35,695 nt of DNA from IMG/VR virus record IMGVR_UViG_3300025402_000005, one strand, 5' to 3'. The DNA comes from an uncultured virus (IMG/VR IMGVR_UViG_3300025402_000005). Taxonomy: Duplodnaviria; Heunggongvirae; Uroviricota; Caudoviricetes. Made by a program: the position numbers and the translations under genes. The notes beneath the pieces are model-generated. The model was not told the DNA's origin. It searched no databases and saw only the letters and a program-made list of their open reading frames with translations. Of this stretch, positions 1-26,665 are shown in pieces (the stretch's first letter is position 1; the number at the start of each line of letters is the position of its first letter).

Positions 1-30
1 CGTCAATTTCTAAAGTATCTAGGCTCATTG

Positions 31-1317
31 TTAAATCCACTCCTTAATATATTCACGGTAATTTTCATCATTCCACCATAGCCACTCCTCGATAGTAAAC
101 TCTGTCTCGCGGAGTAACCTCTTTGTCCCATAAATAGAGAACGCATCTCTACCTTTGAGCTCAGGAAATACACTCTCTACACCTTCCCAGAACGCGTTGA
201 GTCCAGCTTCGATGGCATCATTCACGCGCCGATCGTATTCAGTCATCTCTTTCATTCTTTGTTCTCCTTGTTCTCTAGATAGAATAAGTAATCTAGTGCC
301 TTAGCTACTTTACCCTGCAATTCAGGCTGGTAGGTAAGATCAACGAATAACTGTGCCAGCGTGTCTTTCAATAGATCTTTATAGTCCATTTATTTCTCCT
401 TCTAGTATTTCGACTCCATGCCATATGAAGCCCTCTTGATAACGTGTTACTTGCCCTAATATATCGAACCATTGTTCATCCACCTCAGCGGTGATCATAA
501 ACTTCACCCTCTAATCTCCTCCAACTCTTCTTCATCAAGCGGATAGACTTGATCTCCCATGCCATACCCGATACCAGTCTGAATAACGATCTCACCCTCA
601 GTAACTACCACTAGGCAATTAGGGAGTATCGACTCGAAGAACGCGCGAAACTCTGTGTAATCCTCTACTTGATTAAACTCTTTCATGCCATTACCTCCAC
701 ACATTGATTACAGTACATTTCTACTTCGGTATCCCATTGAATAGGATGGCGGGCATCTCTGCACCCACACTCAGCACACTTAGCCATTAGTTAACCTCTT
801 ATTCAGATCGGCGCAGAAGTAATCCTCTATATCCTCATACTTAGATAGCCATTCTTGCGCATTCTCATCCCATATATGACCATTGTCATAGTTGATAGAT
901 ACACCATCCCAGTCGATACTCCATGAGTTGGTCTCTGTGTCCCATATAACTACATAGTGATACTGCTTACTCATGCTTCCACCTTCTCCACAGTATTTTG
1001 GATAACGCGGGTAATTACCTTGTGATTAGTGTCTAGATTATGAACCATGACCTCGAACCGTGATCGGCTGGTCTTGGTCAGGATGGCATAATCACAGTCT
1101 AAGCAGACAACTGCACTTGTCATTCTTTGTCACTCCATATCTCAATATGATTAATAGTTGCGCCCCACTCTGTCTCTGTCTTTACATCAATATCTACACC
1201 GTCTCTATCCCACGGTTCTAACACCTGGAGAGTAATTGAGCTGGCAATAGAGTCGATCTCATCAGCGGTAAGCTTCCTATCAGTCCTAAAGTTCATAACT
1301 ACTTGATACGCTTGCAT
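31..1317 (-). CDS. Operon of small acidic hypothetical early proteins (31-255, 252-389, 504-~686, 780-974, 1120-1317 and shorter ORFs)
   Basis: Tightly packed or overlapping minus-strand ORFs with GGAG/GAAGG Shine-Dalgarno sequences; no recognised family. Confidence 0.7.
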
Positions 1318-1366
1318 AATCACCTTCTAGATAATCAATTCGGCGGAGACTGTCTCCACTAAGAGG

Positions 1367-1420
1367 AACCTATACCCTAGAGAGGAGAAATAGAGGGATT
1401 TTTGATAACGATTAGATAAC
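1367..1420 (-). promoter_or_regulatory. Early cassette promoter A: GTTAT-N6-GTTAT direct repeat plus -10 TAGGTT
   Basis: GATAAC at 1404 and 1415; -10 at 1367-1372, 31 bp away; same geometry in five other cassettes. Confidence 0.7.
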
Positions 1421-1502
1421 GATTTATACAACCCCTCAATACCCCCATAGAACCCAGTTTTGGCGGGTACTGTCTAATTAGGAATAGATATAAGGATAGA
1501 TA

Positions 1503-1529
1503 CTCTCTCTCTCCTCTCTCTCTCTCTCT
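1503..1529. repeat. (CT)n simple repeat
   Basis: ctctctctctcctctctctctctctct; an expanded form of the CTCTCTCT tract in the other spacers. Confidence 0.9.
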
Positions 1530-1531
1530 TG

Positions 1532-1547
1532 TGTTTCACGTGAAACA
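1532..1547. promoter_or_regulatory. parS: parS centromere-like site (perfect consensus)
   Basis: TGTTTCACGTGAAACA, an exact 16-bp match to the canonical chromosomal ParB-binding palindrome; intergenic. Confidence 0.85.
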
Positions 1548-1754
1548 TCTCTCTCAGCTAGCTCACAGATAGCTCTCAGCCTATTATCAGATACCTCCCC
1601 AGCCAACTACCCCCAACTTCTGGTCATACATCCACTTATCGATTTGTCGACATTTGACAGTAGCCGAATTGCCCTAGCAGATCGGTGGCTCCGGTGTCAA
1701 TAGTCCCAGGCTGTGATTCCGGTCACATCTCTCTTGCATATATATTCCCTAATG

Positions 1755-1825
1755 GGGAGGGTGGGTCAACACAAACAAAATGCCCGGTCAATCGCCGCCA
1801 CTACACGGTGATCGCCGGGCATTTT
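1755..1825 (-). terminator. Cassette terminator hairpin followed by conserved TGTTTGTGTTG-CCCACCCTCCC motif
   Basis: aaaatgcccgg...ccgggcatttt inverted repeat next to GGGAGGGTGGGTCAACACAAACA. Confidence 0.7.
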
Positions 1826-1845
1826 GCCGGGGAAACAGCTGCTAA

Positions 1846-2625
1846 TTACTCTTCGTCCTCCTCATCCGGACCGTAAGTGAGCTTAGCCCAATGAGCTACC
1901 ACGCTATTGATCAGCCATAGGCATTGCCCATCTGTGTAATCCTCTCCAGGCATACCCGGGATATCTCCTATGAGATCTACTACCTCTCCATCCATGCCGT
2001 TATAGGAGAGCTCTCTGGCTAGGAACTCCAATATCCGCCCCGTTACTTCTTCGGTGCTCTTCGTACCACCTTCAATAGTCATCGTGCCCACACTCCTTCT
2101 AAGGTCATATTGACGTCTAATACCTTGAACTCTCCAAGATTTAGCCCGTTTTCCGCCAACCACTGCGTAGCGAGCCGTTCAGCCTGCTCCTCATCATCAG
2201 CACTAATCACTGTCGCTACACTGAAATAGTCCATGATGAAGGTAACTGTGTAGTCGTTCATTCCCGATCCTCTCCTTTTAGCACTAATGTGTCATGCTCA
2301 GACTCAGCTTTGAGGGATACGATGATCGTGCCGTCCTCATTCTCCCAGCGGAAGAACTGGTAGTCGCACTCTTCGCACCTCCCGTCCATGTCGTTAATCA
2401 TCTCTATGGTGTTGTCGTCTATGCTTTCCCAGCCACAGACGATACAAGTCACCTTGATACAGCCGTGATAAGTAGTCATTACAGCCTCCCAAACTTCGCC
2501 AAGATGTGTTGTAGGGCTTCGGTGGCACCTTCACCCCATAGGTGGTCAGCAGTATCCGCGGACTCCTCCACGAATTGCTTAATCTCCTCTAGGTGACTCT
2601 CTATGTAATCGAGTACCTCATTCAT
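1846..2625 (-). CDS. Four translationally coupled hypothetical proteins (1846-2082, 2079-2261, 2258-2479 with two CxxC, 2479-2625)
   Basis: ATGA/TAATG overlaps and SD sequences. Confidence 0.75.
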
Positions 2626-2858
2626 GGCATTATCCCTCCGAATAGGAACCCTCCGCCATTGCCTTCCTCATCGCGGGAGACTTCTATCTCTCCGATGTGA
2701 CCATCAGCAAAACGGATAGTGAAGGATGGGAAAGGGTCATTACCCCATTCAGGGTCGTCCTCTTTCATCCCATTGAACTTCAAGATGGTGGCACCCACTA
2801 GCGAGCCGTAGTACTTCTCGTAGAAGGCTTTTCTCTTTTCTAGGTAGTTAGTAGTCAT
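2622..2858 (-). CDS. Conserved phage hypothetical protein (DEEGNGGG motif)
   Basis: ORF coupled at both ends; SRDEEGNGGGFLF motif. Confidence 0.75.
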   Translation of the reverse strand: MTTNYLEKRKAFYEKYYGSLVGATILKFNGMKEDDPEWGNDPFPSFTIRFADGHIGEIEVSRDEEGNGGGFLFGGIMP

Positions 2859-3076
2859 TATTCCTCACACTCACAGTCGGATAAATAGTTATTGCAGTCA
2901 TTACACTCAGTTGTTGCTAGGAAGTCAGAGAACCCAACGCGGTAGGCGATAGGGTCTAACTCATAAAGGGCGCGGGATGTGTCATACTCATACCCAGCGA
3001 CCATGACGGTGCCCCATGCTTCATCGAGACTCTCTTTGTAAAACTCCTCTAATTCGTATTCCTCATATTTAGCCAT
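2858..3076 (-). CDS. Acidic hypothetical protein (DPIAYR motif, C-terminal Cys cluster)
   Basis: Start moved to ATG 3076, downstream of the TGATAGGA SD. Confidence 0.75.
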   Translation of the reverse strand: MAKYEEYELEEFYKESLDEAWGTVMVAGYEYDTSRALYELDPIAYRVGFSDFLATTECNDCNNYLSDCECEE

Positions 3077-3113
3077 GTTCATTCCTATCAGTAGTAGTGG
3101 ACTTGCAAGACAA

Positions 3114-3281
3114 AATCTACCCCATCGAACCCCTAAAACCCTCTCTTTTTTCATAACGATTTGATAACGATCCAGCTCCCAGGAAACTCCCGGCCGGTCC
3201 TCAGCTCATTCCCGGCTAACTCTCTCTTACTTACTCCCTTAGATAGTTAGAGACTAGGGAGGGTGGGTCTCAACACAAACA
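3114..3281. repeat. Conserved inter-cassette spacer B (promoter plus motif module)
   Basis: -10 TAGATT 3114-3119; ATAAC pair 3152/3163; CCCGGCTA; CTCTCTCTTACTTACTCCCTTA; GGGAGGGTGGG 3257-3267; CAACACAAACA 3271-3281. Confidence 0.85.
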
Positions 3282-3287
3282 TTCGGG

Positions 3288-3390
3288 CACAACAAAGGCC
3301 GGCAACCCCCTGGCTGCCAGCCTTGTTGTATAGAACCCCCGCGAGCCTGACTCATTCAGGGGTTCTATGTTTTACCTGATAGGAGGTAAA
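3288..3390 (-). terminator. Three tandem hairpins at the cassette 3' end (terminator or structured 3' UTR)
   Basis: acaacaaaggccggcaacc/ggctgccagccttgttgt; atagaacccc/ggggttctat; tttacct/aggtaaa. Confidence 0.7.
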
Positions 3391-3391
3391 T

Positions 3392-3499
3392 CTAGCTCTC
3401 GCAATCGTGACCGGTGTACCACTCTTCAGCTTGAACCTCATCTAGAAGGTTGAACACACGATCGCACTCAATACAGCGAGCTACAGTTGATAGTTTCAT
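3392..3499 (-). CDS. 35-aa CxxC...HxC small protein (MKLSTVARCIECDRVF...GHDCES), absent from the ORF track
   Basis: GGAGGT SD; ATGA overlap with the upstream gene. Confidence 0.7.
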   Translation of the reverse strand: MKLSTVARCIECDRVFNLLDEVQAEEWYTGHDCES

Positions 3500-4035
3500 G
3501 CACTCACCTCCTCTTTAGGGCAATCGTCAAAGCGGTACTCTTCATCCTCACAGCCATAACAGTAATCGAGGTACTTCATGCTATCAGCGTGAGTTTCGGG
3601 GATGTCCCACGCCTCCTCCTCAATGACCTCTCCATTCTTGTAGGTGACCACGCCTCCCCAGCCTTGTTCCTCTAGGTACTCATGGACAATGCCAGCGGAT
3701 GGATAGAGTTCAGCGAGCGCGGAAATCACAGTAGGTGGAGACCATGGCGTATTGAAGGTATAGAGAACATCTTCATCTGAGGAAGACTCTACATTCAGGT
3801 CACTAGCGTCCCACTTACAACCCCAATGGTTGAGGTTCCAGCCATACCAGCCAGATGGGTCATTCATGGTTTTACCATTAGTACCCACGACATCGTTATA
3901 CGCCTCTAAATCGGTAGGCGCGATAATCTGCCAGAAAAAGCCTTGTTCTAAGTCTTTCTCTAAGCGAGCGCGAATCTCTTTAATGACCTCTGACTTAGCG
4001 GTAATCGTCACGCTATTGCTAACCCAATTTGGCAT
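3496..4035 (-). CDS. YubB/DUF1281 (Api92-like) ferredoxin-like domain protein
   Basis: MPNW-N start, WYxWN-xx-WGxKWD and FxTxWSPP motifs. Confidence 0.8.
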   Translation of the reverse strand: MPNWVSNSVTITAKSEVIKEIRARLEKDLEQGFFWQIIAPTDLEAYNDVVGTNGKTMNDPSGWYGWNLNHWGCKWDASDLNVESSSDEDVLYTFNTPWSPPTVISALAELYPSAGIVHEYLEEQGWGGVVTYKNGEVIEEEAWDIPETHADSMKYLDYCYGCEDEEYRFDDCPKEEVSA

Positions 4036-4451
4036 TAGAGAATCACCTCCTCTCTCACAATAGGGGTTTCGGCAACCTCACCGAATGTGCGCTCATAGAG
4101 GTCACGCCCAGCCTGCCACTCTGACCAATAGCCATCTGAACCGACACTCAATGCCTCACCAAAATAGTACTTAGCGCGGATAAGGACGGCGGTAACTACC
4201 TCATCATAAGGCTTGAAAGCAGTCTTACAGAAATTCATGTCCTGCTTATTGCTGAGGTGAAAAGTTTCATGGCTTCTCTCTCCTACGCCGTTAAAACGAA
4301 TGCGCTCACCCAATTCAGGTAAGCCAGTACCATCCCAGCCAGCGATACCAGCCTCTGAGTTCTCAATAATTGCGGTAACATCTCCTACTAAGGCATTCCA
4401 ATTCTCTTCATGAATAGCCTCCTTTACAGTAAAGTAATGTGTATAGCCCAT
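4035..4451 (-). CDS. Conserved phage protein (MGYTHY...FCKT..KPYD family)
   Basis: Characteristic motifs; TGATAGGAG SD. Confidence 0.8.
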   Translation of the reverse strand: MGYTHYFTVKEAIHEENWNALVGDVTAIIENSEAGIAGWDGTGLPELGERIRFNGVGERSHETFHLSNKQDMNFCKTAFKPYDEVVTAVLIRAKYYFGEALSVGSDGYWSEWQAGRDLYERTFGEVAETPIVREEVIL

Positions 4452-4493
4452 TTCAGTCTCCTATCAAAGAACTAGCGATTTGCTAGTGACTAA

Positions 4494-4654
4494 AACCTAT
4501 CACCTAATCCCCCAAAATCCCCCAAAATTAGATAACGATTTAATAACGCTTGCCTGAGAATTAGCCTGGAATTAGCCGGGGACCGGCAGCTCTCTCTCAA
4601 CAACTCCCTTACGTAGTAAGTACAGAACAGGGAGGGTGGGTTCCAACACAAACA
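4494..4654. repeat. Conserved inter-cassette spacer C
   Basis: -10 TAGGTT 4494-4499; ATAAC pair 4531/4542; TAGCCTGG/TAGCCGGG; CTTAC-GTA-GTAAG; GGGAGGGTGGG 4630-4640; CAACACAAACA 4644-4654. Confidence 0.85.
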
Positions 4655-4717
4655 ATCTGAGCTACAAAATGCCGAAAGGGGCAGGGGATTTCTCCCCCAC
4701 CCCCTGAAGCTTGACTC

Positions 4718-5206
4718 TTAGGCGTTCACCGTCCCAAAGATCTCCTCGCACACCTTCGGATGTAATGAGGTACGCATCTCTGTGAAGGCGGAAGGCTTCC
4801 AACCAGCAAGATAGACACGAGTGAGCAACTTACCTAGCGGATACTTCTCACTTGCCACTCCGAGTCGGATAAGTGCCAACTTGGTATCTCCTGACTCAAA
4901 GGCAATCAAAGACTGGAAGCAAGCAGGAGCATAGATACCAGCAGGTACCACACTCACTAAACGGTTAATCTGCTCAACATGGGTTTTATTATCTTTATCC
5001 ATGATACCGAGTACATAATCGCGGATAGAGAGTTTATCGAAAGAAGCAACCAACTTAGGGAGATCCACATCATTATTGGTATCAGCCAGCCAATTATCAA
5101 CCGCGCGGGCACTTTCAACCATCCACTCGCTACCAGCGTCCCAATCACTATCTACGCGGACGGCGCGGTTTGCCATAACTTGCGCCTTAAATTGTGTCTT
5201 GTTCAT
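4718..5206 (-). CDS. DUF4192-like actinobacterial protein (C-terminal helical part)
   Basis: IRD..., PA..., GD-xx-A, Y-x-L-xx-LL and GWxP pattern; start ATG 5206 after TGATAGGAG. Confidence 0.6.
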   Translation of the reverse strand: MNKTQFKAQVMANRAVRVDSDWDAGSEWMVESARAVDNWLADTNNDVDLPKLVASFDKLSIRDYVLGIMDKDNKTHVEQINRLVSVVPAGIYAPACFQSLIAFESGDTKLALIRLGVASEKYPLGKLLTRVYLAGWKPSAFTEMRTSLHPKVCEEIFGTVNA

Positions 5207-5249
5207 CTTTACTCCTATCAGTACATCCACCGACTTGGTGAATAGTTGA

Positions 5250-5438
5250 ACCCTACCCCATGCCCCACGATTTGCCCCTAATTTTTAATAACGATTTGAT
5301 AACAATTAATTCCCAGCCGGTCCCCAGCTAACTCCCGGCTAGCTCACAACTCTCTCTTTAATAATCCCTATTACGAAGTAATAGTTGGATCAGGGTGGGT
5401 GGGAGCCAACACAAACAAACCCCGCGCTTGGCGGGGTT
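5250..5438. repeat. Conserved inter-cassette spacer D plus terminator
   Basis: -10 TAGGGT; ATAAC pair 5287/5298; CTATTAC-GAA-GTAATAG; GGGTGGGTGGG; CAACACAAACA 5407-5417; hairpin aaccccgc/gcggggtt. Confidence 0.85.
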
Positions 5439-5444
5439 CGCTTA

Positions 5445-5738
5445 TTACTTATCCTCAATGACCTTTATCTCTGCGCCTTTGGCGCGGATAACTAGTACAG
5501 AGTCAGTAGGGATAGAACGAAACGCCTTCTTATCCATGTCCCAGACTGGAATTAACTTCTTTTCGTCAGCGTCGTACTTAAGGACTCCGCCGACTAACTT
5601 TGACTTGTAATTCGTAGTCGCGCGCATGGTGCGCAACTCACCCGTAGTGCGCTTGATAAAGTCAACAGAAAAGAAACTGCCATTAAGCGAGCGCAAGAAA
5701 GTATGAATTTGAGCGCGTGTCAGTTCTACAGTTTCCAT
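5445..5738 (-). CDS. WYL_2 / DUF2693-like SH3 beta-barrel protein
   Basis: FxKxxGExRxMxAT...VWDxxKxAFRS motif. Confidence 0.7.
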   Translation of the reverse strand: METVELTRAQIHTFLRSLNGSFFSVDFIKRTTGELRTMRATTNYKSKLVGGVLKYDADEKKLIPVWDMDKKAFRSIPTDSVLVIRAKGAEIKVIEDK

Positions 5739-5848
5739 TATTCGTCACATCCCTCACAGATAAATACCCACTCTGCTCCAACCTCAGAACGTACAAAGTG
5801 ACCGCTATGCGTGGCGAACTTACCACCGCAACCGTTACAAGCTTCCAT
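5738..5848 (-). CDS. 36-aa zinc-ribbon protein (CNGC...CEGC), absent from the ORF track
   Basis: TGATAGGAG SD; TAATG coupling to the next gene. Confidence 0.7.
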   Translation of the reverse strand: MEACNGCGGKFATHSGHFVRSEVGAEWVFICEGCDE

Positions 5849-5890
5849 TATTAACTCCTATCAGAGAGTCGGCGTTTTGCCGATAGATGA

Positions 5891-6113
5891 ATAGTAACCC
5901 CTACCCGTCGGAATACACGTATTTTTTGATAACAGTTTTATAACGATTTATTTCCCGGCTAGTTCCCGGCTAGCTCTCTCTTATAATGCCCCTTTACGAA
6001 GTAAAGTTAGGCACAGGGAGGGTGGGTGCCAACACAAACATTTCCGGGAGTTTTCCGGGAGCAGGACAAAACCCCCGCCGTGAAGCGGGGGCTTGCTTTC
6101 CTGATAGGGGAAA
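5891..6113. repeat. Conserved inter-cassette spacer E plus terminator
   Basis: -10 TACTAT; ATAAC pair 5928/5939; (TTCCCGGCTAG)2; CTTTAC-GAA-GTAAAG; GGGAGGGTGGG 6016-6026; CAACACAAACA 6030-6040; cccccgc/gcggggg hairpin. Confidence 0.85.
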
Positions 6114-6114
6114 C

Positions 6115-6198
6115 CTATTCGATCGGCTTATCTAAGTGGATCAAGATTCCGACTATGACCATGCCTACCCCTAGCCATAGAGCTACTAAACCGATCAT
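6115..6198 (-). CDS. 27-aa single-TM peptide (MIGLVALWLGVGMVIVGILIHLDKPIE)
   Basis: GGAGGT SD; ATGA overlap with ardC. Confidence 0.6.
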   Translation of the reverse strand: MIGLVALWLGVGMVIVGILIHLDKPIE

Positions 6199-7130
6199 GC
6201 GCTCACCTCCTCTTTGATCTCGGCTTTGCCTAGTACTATCTCGACTGCCTTTGAAGCTTTGGTGATGGCGTCCACTAGAAACTTTGGATCATCTTGGAGA
6301 GGACGCAACCATCCTGCGAGATAGGTGGCGTGATTATCTAGATCTACATCTAGCCCAACTTGATGGAGGAGAGTGACCCCGCCGATCTCCGCTACGAGTT
6401 CCTCTTTAGAATACCCTGAGTCTCCGTGAGATGTGAAGGGTTCTGCCGTCCAGCGATCCGCGCGTGACTTGTGCCCCGTGCTATGGATTACCTCATGAGC
6501 CATTGTCTCCGCGTATTGGGTTCCACTCTTGAATTGTGAGACGAGTGGGAGAGTGATGGAATCCATGAAGGGAGAATAGTGGGGAGACTCGTTCTCGCCC
6601 ATCTCCTTATGGAAGATGGATGGCGCGTTCTGATACTTATTAAGGATAGTCTCTACGGCAACTGGAACCTCCACAGGCTCACGCTTGGTGAGGAATTGGG
6701 CGGGTATTGCTACATCCGCGCATTGATCTAGGTTCCAAACAGTAATGGATGAGAACCAAACATTATTGCGGGTCTTAATAGATGATGGAACTAGTTCGCC
6801 TTTGCCGACATTGACCCAAACGCCATCGATTAGCTTCTGCTTGGTGATCGTAGGCTTAAGGATGTCAGTCGCCCTCTCGCCCTTGCGGACGAATCCGCCT
6901 AGATCCTGCGCTCCTTTATAGGTTACCCATAGTGGGCGCGTGTATCCGCGCTCCTCGCCAATAAGTGAAAGCCACATGGCGTTCACGCCCGTGTAAGCGT
7001 GTTTGGTAACTGCATTGGTAGGCGAGAATCCCGCCCCGTTCCACGGCTTAAGCCATGAAGACTTACCCTCTTGTAATTGCTTAATGACACGCGCTGTAAG
7101 TTCTGCGTGTAACTCATCCTTGCTCAACAT
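6195..7130 (-). CDS. ardC: ArdC-family antirestriction protein (ssDNA-binding DUF1738 plus zincin-like domain)
   Basis: W-x-KPW, Y-x-G-x-N, W-x-TYK-x-AQ-xx-GG-x-VRKGE, HEVIHSTGH-xx-R and YSKEELVAE motifs. Confidence 0.9.
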   Translation of the reverse strand: MLSKDELHAELTARVIKQLQEGKSSWLKPWNGAGFSPTNAVTKHAYTGVNAMWLSLIGEERGYTRPLWVTYKGAQDLGGFVRKGERATDILKPTITKQKLIDGVWVNVGKGELVPSSIKTRNNVWFSSITVWNLDQCADVAIPAQFLTKREPVEVPVAVETILNKYQNAPSIFHKEMGENESPHYSPFMDSITLPLVSQFKSGTQYAETMAHEVIHSTGHKSRADRWTAEPFTSHGDSGYSKEELVAEIGGVTLLHQVGLDVDLDNHATYLAGWLRPLQDDPKFLVDAITKASKAVEIVLGKAEIKEEVSA

Positions 7131-7173
7131 CTTGTCCCCTATCAAAAGACTCTAGCGATTTGCTAGTGCCCTA

Positions 7174-7358
7174 AACCTATACCACCAACCAGCAAACCCT
7201 GCCAAATTTGATAACAATTTGATAACGATTATTTCCGGGACAATTCCCGGCTAGCTCACAGGCAGCTCCCGGCTCTCTCTTACTTACTCCCTTAAACGGG
7301 GCGGGTGGGCCAACACAAACAATGCCGGGAAATGACTGAGGCCCGGGTTGCCCCGAGC
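7174..7358. repeat. Conserved inter-cassette spacer F plus hairpin
   Basis: -10 TAGGTT; GATAAC 7210/7221; TTCCCGGCTAG; 22 nt identical to spacer B; GGGCGGGTGGG; CAACACAAACA 7311-7321. Confidence 0.85.
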
Positions 7359-7381
7359 CCCAGCTCCCGCCGATCAGTACC

Positions 7382-7784
7382 TCATGCGAGCACCGCAGGA
7401 TCTTGTTCTACACGCTCCGCGATCGCCTCACGCAACTCGCGCAACTCGCGGTTACTAATCCCCTGAGAGGGGTAATCCTCATCCCTCAAGATGAGATGTA
7501 CTAGGGCTAGCGTGCTTACTGTGTCAAAAGCTTGGGCGGTAACTGTGTTCATTAGTGAGACTCCTTGATGAATGAGATGATGAGGGTCGAAAGGGTAATC
7601 CATACAAGCCATGAAGCGAGGGGGCTCATGATAGAGCCCCCGTGTAGATGTCCATTACCTTTTGCGCTAAGGCGTCAAGGTCAGCGCGGGTGACCTCACC
7701 GTCTACGCTAGGAGCAATTCGAGCGGGGTCAGCCTGCCATAGGGCAAGGGCAATCGTCGCGGTTTCTAGTGCGTCTAGTTTCAT
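7382..7784 (-). CDS. First early cassette: three coupled small ORFs (7626-7784, 7552-7629 hydrophobic, 7382-7552)
   Basis: TGATAGGTGG SD; ATGA and TAATG overlaps. Confidence 0.65.
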
Positions 7785-7835
7785 TATGTCCACCTATCAG
7801 AGTGTCGATTTACCAGCCGTGTTGCTGATAGGAGA

Positions 7836-7922
7836 ACAATGACAGCACCAGCCAGCAAGCACAAGAGGACAAATCGGACAAATAGTATTTATAACAAAAC
7901 TGTTACATAACAGTTTGATAAC
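7836..7922 (-). promoter_or_regulatory. Leftward sigma70-like promoter TTGTGC-17-CATTGT with upstream ATAAC repeats
   Basis: -35 at 7859-7864, -10 at 7836-7841; ATAAC at 7891, 7907 and 7918. Confidence 0.55.
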
Positions 7923-8098
7923 GATTAGCTGAGAAGTATCTGTACTCAGGCTGAGGCCCCCCCGGGGTTAAGCCGGGAGCTCACCGGGAAGGCCGCCAGT
8001 GCTTATCCACAGGTATCACTAGGTGGGGGCGGGCAGTAGCCGAAGACGGTGCGGGACGGGGCGGAAACAGGCGGGAACAGCTAAAAACTGGCGGGGGC

Positions 8099-8129
8099 TT
8101 GACAACCATTGAAGCGAGGATGGTAGGGT
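8099..8129 (+). promoter_or_regulatory. Rightward promoter candidate TTGACA-19-(TGG)TAGGGT
   Basis: Perfect -35 and extended -10 at the strand switch; spacer is long. Confidence 0.45.
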
Positions 8130-8304
8130 CGGGGCATGAGTACAAGACTAGGAATTTGTCCAAAGTGCGGGAAAGAGATCGAGGTTAGATCAGGTTTCGC
8201 TCACATCATGGTCAACCGACATTTAAAGGAGCACAAATGATGTTTGTCTTATTCACGGCAATGGTTCTGCTAGCAATTTATGGATTAGGAAAAGGAATGA
8301 CACT

Positions 8305-13435: not shown

Positions 13436-13924
13436 ATGAAGAAAATGACGGGCGTTAGCCTATTTGCTGGGAGAGGTCCTGGCGGCAAAACTGCGCCATC
13501 TCTATCTTCATTGATAGACGCAACAGGGGTTTGCTGGGAATGGAATGGAAGAGTAGAAAATAATGGTTACGGTCGTTTTCATATAGGCAATGTAAAGTTT
13601 TTGGCTCACAGAGCCGTCTATGAAATACTTGTTGGGGGTATACCCCAAAATATGGTGTTAGACCACTTATGCAAAAATAGAAGATGCGTAAACCCAGACC
13701 ATTTGTCTGTAACCACTCAAGAAGAAAATAATAGAAGAAGTGGTTCAATAACGTCTAAAAATATAGTAAAAACATCATGCCCTTCTGGACATCCCTACGA
13801 CAAAACTAATACTAAAGTTTGGGTGCGCCCAAATGGTAGAAAAATGCGGTATTGTGCCCAATGCCGTAGAGACCAATACTACAAGCACAAAACTGTGCAC
13901 AAGGAGGTGGTGCCCAATGTCTAG
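13436..13924 (+). CDS. HNH homing endonuclease fused to 12 codons of a C5-MTase N-terminus
   Basis: CWEW-x-G...GYG...AHR-xx-YE...LDHLC-x-NRRCVNPDHL...N; CPSGH...C-xx-C; starts MKKMTGVSLFAG; AT-rich relative to flanks. Confidence 0.9.
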   Translation: MKKMTGVSLFAGRGPGGKTAPSLSSLIDATGVCWEWNGRVENNGYGRFHIGNVKFLAHRAVYEILVGGIPQNMVLDHLCKNRRCVNPDHLSVTTQEENNRRSGSITSKNIVKTSCPSGHPYDKTNTKVWVRPNGRKMRYCAQCRRDQYYKHKTVHKEVVPNV

Positions 13925-15431
13925 TAAGCAATTAACAGGAGTTAGTTTGTTTGCTGGTATATAGGCGGGTTTGACCTTGCCATGGAGCGAAACAATATCG
14001 ATGTTGTAGCTTCCGTAGAAATCGATAAAAAAGCCAGCGGTATTATCGCTCGGCATTTTCCTAATTCCACATTATTCGGAGATGTTACGGAGGTAACAGG
14101 TGAGCAACTCATTGCAGCTGGATTCGACCCAAGAAACGGAATCATTACCGGAGGATTTCCCTGTCAAGACTTATCCGTGGCTGGAAAACGCGCTGGTCTT
14201 GCTGGCAAACGCAGTGGGCTGTTCTGGGAGATTGCCCGACTTATTCAAGAAACAGAAACGGAATGGTTCATCCTCGAAAACGTCCCTGGTTTACTCTCAT
14301 CAAATAAAGGGAGAGACATGGGAGTTGTTATCGGAACGTTGGCCGAACTCGGGTATGGCATCTCATGGCGTGTGCTTGATGCTCAATACTTCGGAGTACC
14401 CCAACGACGGAGGCGTGTCTTCATCATTGGCAGACGTAATTCAGATGGAGCCACTGCCGCAAAAGTATTATTTGAGCAAGAGAGCTTGCGAGGGGATCTT
14501 ACGGAGGGCAGAAAGAAGGGGAAAGACTCTTCCAGAGCCTCTGAAGAGAGCACTATTGCGCGTATGCGAGGATTCGGAGACTACGAACTAGATGACACAA
14601 CATCTACTTTAAAGTCACGCGATTGGAAAGACGCTACGGATATTGTCTACAACTGAGTCCTTCTTTGTTAAAAGTCGCAGAGCGCATACTAAAGATGACT
14701 ATGAAACATGGGTGGAAAGTAATGTTACTCCCACCCTCAATGGTTTTGATAACAGCGATGAGGGTAGGAGCACAGCTTTGATCATTTTCCATCCGCACCG
14801 ACATGATGGTGTTCGTGTTCAAGGAGAAACGGTTAACACATTAACCGCATTTATGGGAACAGGCGGTTTAAATACTCCAATGGTATTGTTAAACGAAAAT
14901 GAAATTGTTGGAACGCTTCAAGCCCGGGATTACAAGGGAGTGGGTAATCAATACGTGGACGAGAATAAAATTGTGATAACTGGTATTCAAAATACAGTAG
15001 TTGGTAGATCAGACACAGCAGGTCCACAAGGAAAAGGTCACACAGATGAAGGAGACCCCATGTTTACTGTTGATACGACTTCCCCACACGCTGTCGCTAT
15101 AACACCCATTCATGACACAGCTACCAGATCTGTTGGTAAGCGCAAGCACGCAGATGGTACTTATTCTTACGATGGTAAAGGGAACGGGCTTGGCATTGGA
15201 GAAGACGGAGACCCTATGAATACTCTTACAGGCGGAGACCGTCATGCTTTAAGCTATGCCTCCACAGTACGTAGACTTACCCCGCTAGAGACTGAGCGTT
15301 TACAGGGATTTCCCGATAATTGGACAGACAATCAAGCGGATTCGTCTCGCTATAAGCAGACTGGAAATGCGGTGGCAGTACCAGTAGTGGATTGGATTTT
15401 AGGGCGCCTTGTCTCTGAACACATGGGATGA
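13917..15431 (+). CDS. DNA cytosine-5 methyltransferase split by two frame changes (possible pseudogene or multi-subunit enzyme)
   Basis: Motif I SLFAG|IGG broken at 13959; GGFPCQD, ENV and QRRRRVF in 13961-14656; motifs IX/X (RRLTP-x-E-x-ERLQGFP, GNAV) in 14643-15431. Confidence 0.85.
14100..14591 (+). CDS. Overlapping +1-frame ORF resembling the M.EcoHK31I beta polypeptide
   Basis: GGAGGT SD at 14089-14094; RWPNSGM...L-x-DV...YYLS-x-RAC-x-GILRRAERRGK-x-LPEPL. Confidence 0.7.
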   Translation: MSNSLQLDSTQETESLPEDFPVKTYPWLENALVLLANAVGCSGRLPDLFKKQKRNGSSSKTSLVYSHQIKGETWELLSERWPNSGMASHGVCLMLNTSEYPNDGGVSSSLADVIQMEPLPQKYYLSKRACEGILRRAERRGKTLPEPLKRALLRVCEDSETTN

Positions 15432-16004: not shown

Positions 16005-16838
16005 ATGGCTAATTCATTCTCTGTCGGCAACGCTGAAAACATTGCTAAGGCTGTTAACACTAAGGCTCCCGCTTTTGCAAAGTCTAAGACTAAAGCAACT
16101 AAAAAGACCACTAAAACGTCAGAGCCAATACATGTTGAATCAGAGCGTTTAGACAAAGACCCTACTTCTTCGCAAGATAGTAAAAGCCCTAAGGCAGAAC
16201 CTCTTTGGGTAGAGTCTGAAAGACTAGACGACACAACCCCTAAAGCAGTAAGTGCCCCTAATAAAGCTTTACCATCCCCTGCCGCACCTGAGAACCCCCA
16301 CAAGGGTAAGCAGTTCCGCGGTAGCACTGGACGCCTAGCAGGTAATCGTCTTTCTTGGAATGACATGAAGACTGGAAAGTACTCTGGAGCTATTGCCAAG
16401 GGCGGGGACATCAATAAGCGAGCAGGCATTAAAGTAGGTAGTCGCCCAAGTAGCCTAGCTCAGACAGACCCTAACTACAGAAACCAGCTTCTTGCCGATC
16501 TACAGAAAGAAGCCTCTAAGCATGGCGAATAAGCCACGCAACATTGGCACAGGTGGTCGTAGTGAGACTGAAGTAGCTCAAAGAGCCAGCGATAAGTTGC
16601 GGTCTAGAAAAGATAGAGACGCCCTAACCCGGGCTTCTGGAGATATTAAGGTCACTGATACTCAGGCTCGTCAATGGAATCGATGGTCAGTATGAGCAGA
16701 GATAAAGAGTTTAAGGACGCCACTATCGTGGACTCCCGTTTTGGTAAGCGCCACATAGTGCTCAACACAAACGAAAAGCCAAGCATTGCTGTGTATGGTA
16801 CTCCCGGAAAAGGACCTAACGGAGAGCACCAAAACTAA
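16005..16838 (+). CDS. Three basic hypothetical proteins (16005-16532 with duplicated VESERLD, 16522-16695, 16692-16838)
   Basis: Coupled ORFs. Confidence 0.7.
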
Positions 16839-24052: not shown

Positions 24053-24173
24053 ATAGATTTGTCGACATTTGTGATACACTAATACTGCCGCGTTCTTCTC
24101 TTCCCGTAGGTGGCGTCAGAGAGTCTGGGATCAACCTCCCAGACTTTCTGCTTAAAACTAAATTAGGATCACA

Positions 24174-25754
24174 GTGAGCAACGACCCAGTATTAGATGAT
24201 GAAGAGTTCATCCCTGACGAGTATGATCAGGACGACGATCTGCCTCCAGAGGAGGAAGATGAGTTAGATGAGCTCTCCAAGGAGTTTGTCAAAAAGCTAG
24301 TAGACCGCTGTATTCAGTTCATCGAAGCCCTCTCTGGACACCCTTTTCACCCCTATCAATTACCCCTCGCTAGACGTATTGTTGAGTCAGTAATCATCAA
24401 TGACGGCGAGGAGATCACCGCTCTCGCGTCTCGTCAGTCAGGTAAGTCAGAGACAGTAGCTAACACAGTAGCTGGGCTGATGGTTCTTCTTCCCCGCTTA
24501 GCCCAGATGTACCCAGATCTGTTAAGTAAGTTTAAAGACGGAATTATGATCGGTATGTTCGCACCGGTCGAGACACAGGTTGAAACTCTCTTCGGTCGTA
24601 CAGTAGACCGCCTTACCAGTGAGCGTGCCCTTGAGATCTTAGGTGACCCAGAGATTGACGATAGCTTAGGTAAAGTTGCTGGCGTTACTCGTCAGATTAG
24701 ACTAAAGAAGTCCCGCTCTAGCCTAACCATGATGACTGCTAACCCCCGGGCTAAGATCGAATCTAAGACCTTCCATCTTATTATTATCGATGAGTGTCAA
24801 GAAGCTGATGACTTTGTAGTTTCTAAATCTATCTCTCCTATGTTGGCTTCCACTGCTGGAACAATGGTTAAGACTGGAACCCCAACCACACATAAGAATA
24901 ACTTCTACAGATCCATTCAGCTCAACCGTCGTCGTCAGACCTCCCGCAGTAGACAGAACCACTTTGAGTGGGACTGGCGTGATGTAGCCAAGGTCAACAC
25001 AAACTACGGCAAGTTTATTAAAAAAGAAATGTTGCGCATTGGTGAGGACTCCGACGAGTTCCAGATGTCATACAACTGCAAGTGGCTTCTTGAGCGCGGT
25101 ATGTTCGTTACCTCTACTGTGCTAGATGAGCTTGGCGATACATCCATGGAGACACAAAAGGCTTGGTATAAGACCCCTGTAGTAGTGGGCATCGACCCCG
25201 CCCGTAAGATTGACTCTACAGTAGTAACAGTTGTCTGGGTTGACTGGAACCGCCCAGACGAGTTTGGTTACTACGACCACCGTATCCTTAACTGGTTAGA
25301 GTTGCAGGGTGATGACTGGGAGAACCAGTACTTCCAGATTAGAGAGTTCCTATCAAACTATGACGTGCTCTCTGTTGGCGTAGACGCAAATGGTGTCGGA
25401 GATGCAGTGGCCCAGCGCCTTAAGATCCTCCTCCCTAACGCAGAGGTTTACTCGATAGGTAGTAGCCAACAAGAGCAATCTAAGCGGTGGAAGCACTTAA
25501 AGGCGCTTATTGATCGTCGCATGATTAGCTGGCCTGCTCATGCAAAGACTCGTCGCCTGCGCACATGGCGCAGATTCAAACAACAGATGGAAGACCTAGA
25601 GACTAAGTTCACTGGTCCTAACTTTTTGGCCCACGCTCCTGATGAAGCCCACGCCCACGATGACTACGCAGATAGCCTAGCTCTCGCCTGCTCTTTAACT
25701 ATGGATCTAACACTGCCTCAAGTTGAAGTATCCAGCTCACCCTTTTTTCGTTGA
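24174..25754 (+). CDS. terL: Terminase large subunit
   Basis: Walker A SRQSGKS, Walker B IIIDE, TGTP coupling motif, RNase H acidic motifs GIDP, DANGVG, HDDYADS. Confidence 0.95.
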   Translation: MSNDPVLDDEEFIPDEYDQDDDLPPEEEDELDELSKEFVKKLVDRCIQFIEALSGHPFHPYQLPLARRIVESVIINDGEEITALASRQSGKSETVANTVAGLMVLLPRLAQMYPDLLSKFKDGIMIGMFAPVETQVETLFGRTVDRLTSERALEILGDPEIDDSLGKVAGVTRQIRLKKSRSSLTMMTANPRAKIESKTFHLIIIDECQEADDFVVSKSISPMLASTAGTMVKTGTPTTHKNNFYRSIQLNRRRQTSRSRQNHFEWDWRDVAKVNTNYGKFIKKEMLRIGEDSDEFQMSYNCKWLLERGMFVTSTVLDELGDTSMETQKAWYKTPVVVGIDPARKIDSTVVTVVWVDWNRPDEFGYYDHRILNWLELQGDDWENQYFQIREFLSNYDVLSVGVDANGVGDAVAQRLKILLPNAEVYSIGSSQQEQSKRWKHLKALIDRRMISWPAHAKTRRLRTWRRFKQQMEDLETKFTGPNFLAHAPDEAHAHDDYADSLALACSLTMDLTLPQVEVSSSPFFR

Positions 25755-26602: not shown

Positions 26603-26665
26603 GTGTCGTTTTATATATTTGTCGACAATTATGTTATTATTGATAGTCTTTACGGAAAGAGGTGA

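What the first reader, a model, noticed from the sequence alone, without database searches (positions are those of the whole stretch)
1367..7922. Array of self-contained early-gene cassettes separated by a conserved ordered multi-motif spacer
Seen: six spacers (1367-1777, 3114-3281, 4494-4654, 5250-5417, 5891-6040, 7174-7321) and a partial seventh (~7890-7930) share one order on the + strand. The order is: -10 box; ATAAC-N6-ATAAC; CCCGGCTA-type repeats; CTCTCTCT; CCC-hairpin-GGG; GGGNGGGTGGG; invariant CAACACAAACA; terminator of the preceding cassette. B and F share 22 identical nt, and the C and F leaders share CTAGCGATTTGCTAGTG. Between spacers lie unrelated cargo genes (ardC, WYL_2-like, DUF4192-like, YubB-like). 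Inference: a promoter-to-terminator cassette system whose spacers also act as homology for gene shuffling or excision. This is reminiscent of T4-type PeSL elements or integron arrays, but I do not recognise this motif set as described. About 100 bp of each spacer is explained by neither promoter nor terminator.
Basis: partly seen in the sequence, partly recalled or inferred. Interest (0 to 1): 0.88.

Follow-up and report, generated by a model that had tools for sequence, protein, structure and literature searches.

The report
Conserved boundary module between phage operons
The early genes of this uncultured actinobacterial-type phage are arranged as short stop-and-restart units, and each junction carries a roughly 50-65-base element of unknown function that is better conserved across more than 50 related phage genomes than the genes themselves.

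Summary
Six spacers and a partial seventh share one ordered motif set, found nowhere else in the window. All genes at 1-7790 lie on the minus strand. Read in that direction, each spacer runs: GC-rich terminator hairpin of the upstream operon; core module (TGTTTGTGTTG, C-rich box CCCACCCNCCC, hairpin, GGGR, (GA)n); phage-specific operator-like repeats (GCCGGGA boxes, GTTAT-N6-GTTAT); a TAGGTT-type -10; a 5'-UTR hairpin; a TGATAGGAG ribosome site.

The new result concerns the unexplained ~100 bp. Its core module occurs in 53 uncultured viral contigs. It accounts for nearly all nucleotide similarity between the window's array and five related arrays (65 of 68 BLAST segments). The promoter-proximal boxes differ from phage to phage.

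A 5-6 bp stem around the C-rich box covaries. A long form in relatives closes into a very stable cloverleaf. Exact complements of the 11-mer are conserved on the sense strand of other genes. Cassette order differs among relatives, which fits PeSL-like shuffling but does not prove it.

The mechanism is inferred. I favour a boundary signal that acts as a single strand, probably RNA.

The parts
7322..7381 (-). Spacer F, terminator-type GC-rich hairpin after the 56-aa gene (stop at 7382)
   Evidence: RNA fold of 7322-7390(-) gives -38.8 kcal/mol
7273..7321 (-). Spacer F core module: 11-mer 7311-7321, C-box 7298-7309, GGGAG 7287-7291, (GA)n 7273-7280
7131..7272 (-). Spacer F promoter-proximal part: GCCGGGA boxes 7245-7273, GTTAT-N6-GTTAT 7211-7226, -10-like GGTATAGGTT 7174-7183, 5'-UTR hairpin 7152-7166, SD TGATAGGGG 7136-7144
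6195..7130 (-). ArdC-type anti-restriction gene (311 aa), followed by a 27-aa ORF at 6115-6198
6041..6114 (-). Spacer E terminator hairpin with TTTTG tail, then a small CCGG hairpin
   Evidence: -35.8 kcal/mol
5974..6040 (-). Spacer E core module: 11-mer 6030-6040, stem GGCAC/GTGCC around C-box 6016-6026, hairpin CTTTAC-TTC-GTAAAG, (GA)n 5974-5981
5849..5973 (-). Spacer E promoter-proximal part: two CTAGCCGGGAA repeats 5953-5970, GTTAT boxes 5929-5944, -10-like 5897-5906, UTR hairpin, SD 5855-5863
5445..5848 (-). Cassette E genes: 36-aa ORF (5738-5848) and 97-aa weak WYL_2-like protein (5445-5738)
5418..5444 (-). Spacer D terminator hairpin CCCCGC..GCGGGG that runs directly into the 11-mer
   Evidence: -14.1 kcal/mol
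5350..5417 (-). Spacer D core module: 11-mer 5407-5417, C-box 5393-5403, hairpin CTATTAC-TTC-GTAATAG, (GA)n 5350-5357
5207..5349 (-). Spacer D promoter-proximal part: three GCYGGGR boxes 5311-5339, GTTAT boxes 5288-5303, -10-like GGGTAGGGTT 5249-5258, UTR hairpin, SD 5212-5220
4718..5206 (-). 162-aa gene, weak DUF4192-like (family A of the cassette maps)
4655..4717 (-). Spacer C terminator hairpins
   Evidence: -32.0 kcal/mol
4590..4654 (-). Spacer C core module: 11-mer 4644-4654, stem GGAAC/GTTCT around C-box 4630-4640, GGGAG 4604-4608, (GA)n 4590-4598
4452..4589 (-). Spacer C promoter-proximal part: GTTAT boxes 4532-4547, G-rich stretch, -10-like GATAGGTT about 4494-4501, UTR hairpin 4471-4487, SD 4458-4466
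3392..4451 (-). Cassette C genes: 138 aa, 179 aa (DUF1281_C) and 35 aa
3282..3391 (-). Spacer B: three hairpins after the stop codon, including TTTACCT-CCTATC-AGGTAAA
   Evidence: -58.8 kcal/mol
3220..3281 (-). Spacer B core module: 11-mer 3271-3281, stem GAGAC/GTCTC around C-box 3257-3267, GGGAG 3234-3238, (GA)n 3220-3227
3077..3219 (-). Spacer B promoter-proximal part: GCCGGGA boxes 3177-3216, GTTAT boxes 3153-3168, -10-like GGGTAGATT 3114-3122, SD 3082-3090
1846..3076 (-). Cassette B: six small genes (72, 78, 48, 73, 60 and 78 aa)
1778..1845 (-). Spacer A terminator hairpin with A- and T-tracts (could act in both directions)
   Evidence: -34.6 kcal/mol
1728..1777 (-). Spacer A core module (short type): 11-mer 1767-1777, C-box 1754-1765, GGGAA 1745-1749, (GA)n 1728-1734
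1318..1727 (-). Spacer A long proximal part: TGTGACCGGAATCACA, TTGACA-N18-TAGGGC (1671-1700), TGTCGACA (1645-1652), (GA)n 1503-1529, GTTAT boxes 1405-1420, -10-like 1367-1377
7785..8140 (-). Spacer G (divergent region): GTTAT boxes 7907-7922 and SD 7791-7799 only; no 11-mer and no C-box
7382..7784 (-). First leftward operon (52, 25 and 56 aa)

Best explanation
Shown. Positions 1-7790 are the leftward early arm of an uncultured phage of about 96 kb. Its major capsid protein is 72% identical to those of Streptomyces phages of the BRock group. The arm consists of seven co-directional operons.

Each inter-operon spacer is a composite, read on the minus strand in this order:
(1) GC-rich terminator hairpin(s) of the upstream operon.
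(2) A lineage-wide core module: a GU-rich 10/11-mer (T)GTTTGTGTTG; a C-rich box CCCACCCNCCC, often held as the loop of a 5-6 bp stem that covaries; a variable hairpin; GGGR; a short W-rich micro-repeat; (GA)3-4.
(3) Operator-like repeats specific to this phage.
(4) A TAnnnT -10 box (TAGGTT type).
(5) A 5'-UTR hairpin followed by TGATAGGAG and the start codon.

Inferred. Parts 3-5 form a co-regulated family of host-RNA-polymerase early promoters. Part 2 is a separate, strongly selected boundary signal that works as a single strand. Most likely it acts as RNA on transcripts that read through the upstream terminator. It would display an unpaired C-rich loop and a GU-rich tail to a factor (Rho-like or phage-encoded), or to a complementary RNA. 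In that way it would insulate, terminate or process transcription between neighbouring cassettes. As a by-product, the ~50-nt near-identical direct repeats offer homology for gain, loss and reordering of cassettes, as in PeSLs.
For: Anatomy and counts.

Conservation.
- The 18-nt pattern hits 78 loci in 53 viral contigs.
- The 11-mer occurs 238 times in 48 of those contigs, against 1 hit for the reversed-word control.
- It occurs 5-10 times in each of five further contigs, mostly in 5-8 kb arrays co-oriented with the genes.
- 65 of 68 blastn segments between the window's array and five related arrays involve a window module; only 3 lie in genes.
- The boxes downstream of (GA)n differ by phage: GTTAY repeats, TGTGAC..GTCACA, GCAAACTCTATTGA, TTATCCACA.

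Single-strand structure.
- 18 of 28 unique modules with a spacer of 2-5 nt between the 11-mer and the C-box have a Watson-Crick helix of at least 5 bp around the C-box.
- These use 15 different arm sequences.
- The swapped-flank null gives 4.9% (maximum 20.8% in 2000 permutations).
- Several hairpin loops are cUUCGg or cUACGg.
- The long form in relatives folds as a multi-branch structure closed by the 11-mer and its complement: z = -6.1 to -9.1, 0 of 200 shuffles as stable, in 6 of 6 elements folded.
- In that long form, 5 pairs of the last hairpin show compensatory changes.

Boundary role. The module always follows a terminator-type hairpin of a co-directional operon. It is missing at the first, divergent promoter G.

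Not a host word. 7 of 7 copies in a Nanopelagicaceae MAG lie on one 7.3-kb phage-like contig. Sixty other genomes of that order hold 0-4 copies each, about chance level.

Cassette differences among relatives.
Against: - No expression data exist, so it is not shown that the module is transcribed. It lies downstream of hairpins that should stop most transcripts.
- The window's own six modules fold no better than shuffled sequence (z = -0.49 to +1.02). Evidence for structure in the short form rests on covariation of one short stem.
- Stems are almost purely Watson-Crick. Of about 1240 pairs, internal mismatches comprise 1 G-T, 3 A-C and 12 other. Many hairpins are palindromic through their centre. 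This looks more like DNA hairpins than typical RNA helices. Wobble-based strand tests were uninformative.
- The strict invariance of the GU-rich 11-mer is not explained by a Rho-type or generic insulator model.
- Extra copies of the 11-mer outside the arrays lack the C-box and lie antisense to the local genes.
- A promoter region between co-directional genes in G002 has no module, so the module is not obligatory at boundaries.
- No binding factor was identified. Sigma70_r2 was not found in the 5 records searched. The RNA_pol (PF00940) search also found nothing, but its control did not ring, so it is no evidence.
Confidence: 0.45

Rival explanations
1. Polar DNA signal. The 10/11-mer is a strand-specific DNA word read by a phage enzyme, for example a nicking, priming, packaging or phage-specific Chi-like recombination signal. 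The hairpins would form in transient single-stranded DNA.
For: - Orientation is uniform within genomes that carry the short form, whatever the local gene direction: G002 10/0, G003 9/0, G004 8/1, G005 5/0, G006 0/9; G035 9/0, G044 8/0, G025 8/0, G007 0/7.
- Copies inside coding genes are conserved at the nucleotide level. In the conserved VPTQT codons, 0 of 4 codons inside the 12-mer vary against 14 of 16 outside (p=0.003).
- Stems are Watson-Crick only and often palindromic through the centre.
Against: - This does not explain why array copies always carry the C-box, hairpin and (GA)n, nor why they sit exactly between terminator and promoter.
- The nearest record, G001, breaks the polarity rule: 6 copies on minus and 1 exact copy on plus at 8023.
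- The word is not enriched in the candidate host order, so it is not a host Chi or KOPS mimic.
- A 5-bp stem with an 11-nt loop is unlikely to extrude from duplex DNA.
Confidence: 0.22
2. Upstream activating DNA site. A conserved phage or host protein binds the duplex 11-mer and C-box and activates or times the downstream promoter.
For: - The module is always upstream of a promoter region.
- Its sequence is invariant, as expected for a protein site.
- Some extra copies lie just upstream of ribosome sites or starts of other genes: 5 of the first 13 looked at.
Against: - The distance from the 11-mer to the start codon varies in the window: 191, 192, 203, 205, 211 and 460 nt (coordinates). It varies more in relatives, so there is no fixed helical phasing.
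- A stem that covaries around an invariant loop is not expected for a duplex site.
- The module is absent from promoter G and from a G002 promoter that carries similar proximal boxes.
Confidence: 0.13
3. The spacers exist chiefly as recombination homology for a mobile cassette system (PeSL- or integron-like).
For: - Direct repeats of 22-58 nt occur between spacers.
- Gene families are permuted as whole units among relatives, and the window has one extra module-bounded cassette relative to G002.
- The precedent is the PeSL system (abstract of PMC2839356).
Against: - The module is conserved far beyond what homology for recombination needs. Its 11-mer is identical across 53 contigs whose genes have diverged below blastn detection. 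This implies a sequence-specific function.
- Modules are gained or lost between the same neighbours, and replacements occur inside cassettes.
- No integrase family matched among the 31 window ORFs scanned.
- No circles or deletions could be tested.
Confidence: 0.1
4. Processive antitermination RNA (nut- or put-like). RNA polymerase that transcribes the module becomes resistant to the following terminators.
For: - The layout is a single-stranded conserved box followed by a hairpin with a conserved loop, in an early region punctuated by terminators.
- The resemblance to lambda nut boxA/boxB and HK022 put is recalled from memory, not tested.
Against: - Known nut and put sites lie downstream of the promoter and ahead of the terminator. 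Here the module lies after the terminator and upstream of the next promoter's operator boxes.
- Transcripts from each cassette promoter therefore do not contain a module until they have already passed a terminator.
- No Rfam family matched.
Confidence: 0.07

Closest known systems
PeSLs (promoter-early stem-loops) of T4-type phages (Arbiol et al. 2010, PMC2839356; abstract read)
   Same: Small repeated regulatory cassettes pair a promoter with a terminator stem-loop. They sit between small non-essential early genes in a plastic region, and relatives differ by whole-gene insertions, deletions and replacements.
   Different: Here an extra 50-65-nt element lies between terminator and promoter: an invariant GU-rich 11-mer, a C-rich loop and (GA)n. 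It is conserved across a whole phage lineage, while the promoter-proximal boxes are not. The host type differs (actinobacterial-style -10, no clear -35). Mini-circles and recombination at the repeats are untested.
Stoperators of cluster A mycobacteriophages (L5, Bxb1); recalled, no call
   Same: Asymmetric short sites occur in many copies per actinophage genome. They lie in intergenic spaces and have a fixed orientation.
   Different: Stoperators are 13-14 bp repressor sites oriented with transcription in both arms of temperate phages. Here array copies are sense and the other copies antisense to local genes. Array copies carry extra structured parts. No repressor or integrase was seen in the window.
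Lambda nut / HK022 put antitermination sites; recalled, no call
   Same: A conserved single-stranded box is followed by a hairpin with a conserved loop, in an early region with terminators.
   Different: The position relative to promoter and terminator is reversed. There is no sequence or Rfam similarity.
RNase III processing sites between T7 early genes; recalled, no call
   Same: Repeated structured elements in each intergenic spacer of an early gene array.
   Different: The T7 early region is one transcript without internal promoters or terminators. The T7 sites are long irregular duplexes. The window's modules are weakly structured.
Chi / KOPS-type polar words; recalled, tested
   Same: A GT-rich, strand-specific word that is co-oriented along the genome.
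   Different: It is not enriched in the candidate host lineage: 0-4 copies per ~1.4-Mb genome in 60 genomes. Array copies also carry additional conserved parts.
Earlier scan reports of terminator-box-promoter cassettes in other uncultured phages (e1-5826582 and others)
   Same: The same general design: a stop hairpin, a near-invariant box and a promoter between small genes, shared by dozens of relatives.
   Different: These are other genomes and their sequences were not shown, so I could not compare the boxes.

Membership tests
PeSL-type promoter/terminator cassette | Stem-loop that terminates the upstream gene's transcript | tested here: met
   A GC-rich hairpin of -14 to -59 kcal/mol lies between the stop codon and the 11-mer in 6 of 6 spacers. 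Several have T-rich tails. Termination itself was not assayed.
PeSL-type promoter/terminator cassette | Strong sigma-70-like early promoter in every cassette | tested here: inconclusive
   A conserved -10-like G(G)TA(T)AGGTT lies 30-45 nt upstream of each start. There is no conserved -35, and the E. coli-consensus scan found none in the spacers.
PeSL-type promoter/terminator cassette | Indels and replacements between relatives bounded by the cassettes | tested here: inconclusive
   Whole-unit permutations and one extra module-bounded cassette were seen. So were module gain/loss and replacements within cassettes. Nucleotide-level breakpoints cannot be mapped.
PeSL-type promoter/terminator cassette | Mini-circles or deletions from recombination between nearby cassettes | not testable with these tools
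   No sequencing run could be listed for this stretch, so no reads were laid.
Integron cassette array | Tyrosine-recombinase integrase next to the array, and attC sites with R''/L''-L'/R' symmetry | tested here: not met
   No integrase family matched among the 31 ORFs scanned. The spacers are not imperfect palindromes of attC type.
Known RNA families (Rfam 15) | Match to a curated covariance model | tested here: not met
   No match overlaps a module in the window or in 20 related loci at E<=1.
Host Chi/KOPS-like polar word | Over-representation in the host chromosome | tested here: not met
   7 of 7 copies in the MAG lie on one phage-like contig; about 47 copies in 60 genomes, near the chance level of ~0.7 per genome (my arithmetic). 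The host assignment itself is only a hint.
nut/put-type antitermination site | Located in the transcript between the promoter and the terminators it overrides | tested here: not met
   The module lies downstream of the terminator and upstream of the next promoter's boxes in 6 of 6 spacers.
Promoter of a phage-encoded RNA polymerase or sigma factor | Phage encodes such a polymerase or sigma factor | tested here: inconclusive
   There was no PF00940 hit, but that control rang nowhere. There was no Sigma70_r2 hit in 5 records, two of them at least 94% complete, and that control rang in 10 of 14 genomes. Divergent factors could be missed.

The most novel reading that the evidence does not exclude
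The GU-rich arm UGUUUGUGUUGG of the early inter-operon modules may be an antisense seed. It would pair with the exact complement CCAACACAAACA, which these phages keep on the sense strand of other (largely structural or late) genes. Several of those complements lie right at ribosome-binding sites or first codons.

The long form in related phages carries both arms in cis as a 9-12 bp closing helix of a cloverleaf. The short form, as in this window, would be a split version that acts in trans. This would be an RNA-RNA link between the early and late programmes, timing late translation or directing decay of early read-through RNA.
Probability: 0.15. Interest if true: 0.85.

Novelty: new variant of a known kind. 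Interest (0 to 1): 0.68.

Why it matters
The stop-and-restart cassette design is known from T4-type phages. Here it carries an extra element that is the most conserved nucleotide sequence of the early region in at least 53 uncultured phage genomes, probably phages of freshwater Actinobacteria, whose hosts are rarely cultured. An invariant 11-mer, a C-rich loop held by a covarying stem, a cloverleaf long form and conserved complements inside other genes all point to a regulatory signal with no described counterpart. Working it out would show how this abundant phage group separates or links its transcription units. It could also yield a compact, portable insulator or timing element for actinobacterial genetics. 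In addition, the element is a convenient sequence marker for recognising this phage lineage in metagenomes.

Tried and rejected
- **Cultured phages.** Megablast of 1-8200 against cultured phages gave no match. blastn of spacer E against the same set gave only chance hits at E>=0.6. BRock, the nearest cultured group by capsid protein, lacks the 18-nt motif. It has one C-box-like word, the same as the control.
- **Rfam.** Nothing was found on the window or on 20 related loci.
- **Literature.** A full-text search for either 11-mer found 117 papers; the 20 listed looked like primer or oligo contexts, with no phage element among them. A search on Streptomyces phage / BRock / intergenic / repeat found only the BRock genome announcement, of which I saw the listing abstract. 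I therefore found no description in print, within these two searches.
- **Whole genome.** None is held for the window.
- **RNA runs.** No RNA holder was listed, so no reads were laid.
- **ArdC relatives in viral contigs.** Only two distant loci turned up, of no use for synteny.
- **Bacterial genome scan with the 18-nt pattern.** 25 hits were found, about or below my chance estimate of ~50 for 596 Gb. The exception was three hits on one contig of a Nanopelagicaceae MAG.
- **tRNA-like reading of the cloverleaf form.** ARAGORN found nothing in 17 loci or in the window.
- **G-quadruplex or i-motif reading.** The window's modules have only three G/C runs (read), so I rejected it.
- **Sigma-70 promoter within the 11-mer or C-box.** No consistent -35/-10 spacing exists (read), so I rejected it.
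- **Strand assignment.** Tests by G-U against A-C counts and by sense/antisense folding energy were uninformative or driven by composition.
- **Consensus promoter/terminator scan.** Promoter-like sites were fewer than in shuffles (6 against 10.9), and terminator-like sites were 8 against 5.8.

Full report
**What is there.**

The window is phage DNA. It encodes a terminase (24174-25754), a portal (26666-28384), a major capsid protein (29332-30402), an endolysin and a 1018-aa collagen-like tail fibre, all on the plus strand. The capsid protein is 72-73% identical to those of Streptomyces phages LuckySocke, Alone3 and BRock. No whole genome is held.

A near-identical viral record, G001, is 41,457 bases long and estimated at 43% complete. 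It shows that the window starts at its base 8788.

All genes from 1 to about 7790 are on the minus strand. A divergent control region lies at 7785-8140. The finding therefore has to be read on the minus strand, from high to low coordinates.

**Checking the observation.**

The motif set is real and confined to the stated region.
- The gapped 18-nt pattern TGTTTGTGTTG-N1-3-CCCACCC occurs 6 times, all on the minus strand; none is expected from shuffles.
- GTTAT-N6-GTTAT occurs 7 times against 0.05 expected.
- The repeat finder recovered the same families, the 22-nt identity between B and F, and the 17-mer shared by the C and F leaders.

Cargo genes:
- ArdC is solid.
- WYL_2 and DUF4192 are weak, below Pfam's cut-offs.
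- The 179-aa protein matches DUF1281_C.

**Anatomy of one spacer, minus strand, 5' to 3'.**

1. GC-rich hairpin(s) right after the upstream stop codon (-14 to -59 kcal/mol), several with T-rich tails.
2. The core module:
   - TGTTTGTGTTG;
   - 1-3 nt;
   - CCCACCC-N-CCC(C);
   - a variable hairpin;
   - GGGR;
   - a short W-rich micro-repeat (TAAGTAAG, TTGTTG, ATATATAT);
   - (GA)3-4.
3. Two to three GCCGGGA-type boxes about 11 nt apart.
4. GTTAT-N6-GTTAT followed by an A-run.
5. A G-rich stretch ending in G(G)TA(T)AGGTT, a TAnnnT -10 box of the kind used by Actinobacteria (the consensus is recalled, not from a call).
6. A short hairpin at the start of the leader.
7. (C/T)TGATAGGAG, then 5-8 nt, then the start codon.

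Spacer A has the same ends but about 300 nt more. The extra stretch holds a TTGACA-N18-TAGGGC promoter-like site, a TGTCGACA palindrome and long (GA)n tracts. Spacer G, the first leftward promoter, faces a divergent gene. It has items 4-7 only.

**The core module is a lineage-wide element.**

- The 18-nt pattern matched 78 loci in 53 viral contigs of 4.6-98 kb.
- In five of them the 11-mer occurs 5-10 times, nearly all in one orientation. Most copies sit in a 5-8 kb array where each follows a terminator-type hairpin and precedes a short operon.
- In the other 48 contigs it occurs 238 times, against one hit for the reversed-word control.
- Some modules carry AGTTTGTGTTG, so the invariant core is the 10-mer.

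Nucleotide comparison of the window's array with the five related arrays gave 68 blastn segments. Of these, 65 involve a window module and only 3 lie in genes. G005 against G006 looks the same. The module is therefore far better conserved than the proteins around it.

What follows (GA)n differs from phage to phage:
- GTTAY direct repeats in the window, G004 and some others;
- TGTGAC-N4-6-GTCACA in G005 and G006;
- GCAAACTCTATTGA in G003;
- TTATCCACA-type boxes in some G002 spacers.

**Host hint and absence from cells.**

A scan of 596 Gb of bacterial and archaeal genomes gave 25 hits. That is at or below my chance estimate of ~50. The exception was three hits on one 7.3-kb contig binned with a Candidatus Nanopelagicaceae MAG.
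- In that MAG all 7 copies of the 11-mer are on that contig and none is in the other 1.3 Mb.
- Sixty other genomes of the same order hold 0-4 copies each, about chance.

The word is therefore phage-specific and not a host Chi- or KOPS-like signal. A leaderless TTGACA-N18-TAGGGT-N6-ATG start at 8099-8138 also fits an actinobacterial host (leaderless usage is recalled). BRock itself lacks the element.

**Structure.**

In modules with 2-5 nt between the 11-mer and the C-box, the last G of the 11-mer and the first C of the box belong to a 5-6 bp stem. This stem makes the C-box an 10-12-nt loop.
- 18 of 28 unique modules have a Watson-Crick helix of at least 5 bp there.
- They use 15 different arm sequences (GGAAC/GTTCC, GAGAC/GTCTC, GGCAC/GTGCC, GAGCAC/GTGCTC and others).
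- The null with flanks swapped between elements gives 4.9%, with a maximum of 20.8% in 2000 permutations.
- The window's B, C and E fit this stem; D has one mismatch.

The next hairpin also varies in sequence while keeping its pairing. In many relatives it has a cUUCGg or cUACGg loop.

A second, long form occurs in at least 20 unique elements. There the 11-mer pairs with an exact CAACACAAACA 75-145 nt downstream. The pair closes a three-hairpin cloverleaf in which the C-rich boxes stay unpaired.
- Six of six long-form elements folded had z-scores of -6.1 to -9.1.
- An alignment of 12 gave 9 invariant closing pairs, one U-G, and 5 pairs of the last hairpin with compensatory changes.

**Results against a simple RNA-structure reading.**

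- The window's six modules fold no better than shuffles (z = -0.49 to +1.02).
- The stems contain almost no wobble pairs.
- Many hairpins are palindromic through the centre.
- My strand tests were uninformative.

**Copies outside the arrays.**

The short-form genomes hold further exact copies of the 11-mer without the C-box. In 24 of the 25 I examined, the local gene's sense strand carries the complement, CAACACAAACA. The one exception encodes a conserved GVCVDNADP motif and is probably coincidental.

Several of these copies are orthologous sites.
- TAA-CCAACACAAACA-AGGAG immediately before the start of one gene in G003, G027 and G031.
- The leader of a 'MASK...' gene in G002 and G004.
- Codons 3-6 of a gene in G001.
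- A VPTQT site in a conserved protein of G003, G018, G035 and G044. Here none of the 4 codons inside the 12-mer varies, while 14 of 16 flanking same-residue codons do (p=0.003).

The word is therefore under nucleotide-level selection outside the arrays as well. In the window itself only 10-mer copies occur on the plus strand, at 16763 and 24995.

Two readings fit these copies.
- A polar DNA word. Orientation is uniform per genome in nearly all cases.
- RNA-RNA complementarity between early modules and other mRNAs.

G001 has its single extra exact copy flipped relative to the array but still antisense to its gene. This favours the RNA reading, but it is one case.

**Cassette dynamics.**

I grouped ORFs of the six arrays by BLASTP and marked the modules. 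Below, '|' marks a module, letters are BLASTP gene families shared between arrays, and 'x' or '.' is an ORF with no match in the other arrays.
- Window: | ArdC | x I | A | x x D x | x E x x x J |
- G002: ArdC x | A x F .. | L D | E x x J |
- G005: ..R | G | B Q | . S | N.. | C | T
- G006: | B . | R | A | G . S | .. | T | C |

Whole units are permuted (C|T against T|C; R..B against B..R). The window has one module-bounded cassette (x I) that G002 lacks. This is what PeSL-type shuffling predicts (abstract of PMC2839356).

Equally, modules come and go between the same neighbours (A F in G002, A|F in G003). Genes are replaced inside cassettes (138 aa against L upstream of D). At this divergence every gene-level rearrangement must break in an intergenic spacer anyway. 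I rate the shuffling idea as plausible but unproven, and as secondary to a sequence-specific function.

**Mechanism.**

- Shown: the composite anatomy, the lineage-wide conservation of the core module, the covarying stem, the cloverleaf long form, the conserved complements elsewhere, and the absence from host genomes.
- Inferred: the promoter-proximal half is a family of co-regulated early promoters of the host polymerase, with phage-specific operator repeats.

For the core module I commit, at about 45%, to a single-stranded and most likely RNA-level boundary signal. It would act on transcripts that pass the upstream terminator, and it would expose a C-rich loop and a GU-rich arm to a reader. 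My reasons:
- it occurs only behind co-directional operons;
- it is strand-specific;
- it is missing at the first promoter;
- its helices covary while its loops are invariant.

Sigma70_r2 was not found in the five records searched. The search for a T7-type polymerase family also found nothing, but its control did not ring, so it is no evidence.

Rivals:
- a polar DNA signal such as a nick, priming or phage-specific recombination site (about 22%);
- an upstream activator site (about 13%);
- recombination homology as the main purpose (about 10%);
- a nut/put-like antiterminator (about 7%).

**Comparison and novelty.**

The array is a PeSL-like stop-and-restart cassette system in a new phage lineage and host type. 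Earlier reports of this scan describe similar designs in other phages. The core module has no counterpart that I could find in Rfam, in cultured phages or in two literature searches. I file the whole as a new variant of a known kind. The boldest reading is a split, trans-pairing version of the cloverleaf that links early and late RNAs, which I put at about 15%.

Noticed in passing
window 1645-1652, 24060-24067, 26620-26627: The palindrome TGTCGACA, inside a ~24-nt repeat (ATNGATTTGTCGACA..), occurs in spacer A and again just upstream of the terminase and portal genes (D19, 79). The same TTGTCGACAAAG boxes follow the last array module in G002, G004 and G006. It may be an operator or promoter element of a later gene class.
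   Followed up: partly
window 8099-8138: TTGACA-N18-TAGGGT is followed 6 nt later by the ATG of a 34-aa zinc-ribbon-like ORF. This looks like a strong rightward promoter that makes a leaderless mRNA.
   Followed up: no
window 8003-8011 and 8032-8041: A perfect DnaA-box-like TTATCCACA and GGCAGTAGCC lie in the divergent control region. GGCAGTAGCC is the complement of the GGCTACTGCC word that recurs next to promoters in related contigs. TTATCCACA repeats also occur in spacers of relatives L004 and G002.
   Followed up: no
window 3376-3383, 6101-6108, 7825-7832 (+ strand): CCTATCAG, the complement of the ribosome-site leader CTGATAGG, sits in small hairpins just after the last stop codon of operons C and F and in the leader of operon G. 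The operon F copy (CCCCTATCA) matches its own leader variant (TGATAGGGG). The 3' end of an operon RNA could therefore pair with a 5' ribosome site.
   Followed up: partly
window 13982-15431: A C-5 cytosine DNA methyltransferase is split into two overlapping ORFs: 224 aa matching profile positions 18-168 and 262 aa matching 230-322. It lies directly after an HNH endonuclease gene (13436-13924). This could be a split gene, a frameshift or an insertion.
   Followed up: no
window 16763-16772 and 24995-25004 (+ strand): The 10-mer CAACACAAAC, the complement of the module core, occurs on the sense strand of a 54-aa ORF and of the terminase gene. About 0.07 such 10-mers are expected by chance in the window (my arithmetic).
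   Followed up: partly
L089-L091 (contig C44 of G055): A 7.3-kb contig binned in a Candidatus Nanopelagicaceae MAG carries 7 co-oriented modules and is probably phage DNA mis-binned with, or infecting, that host.
   Followed up: partly
window 32045-35101: A 1018-aa tail-fibre-like protein has long collagen G-X-Y repeats (Pfam Collagen E=2e-71). These repeats dominate the repeat finder's output.
   Followed up: no
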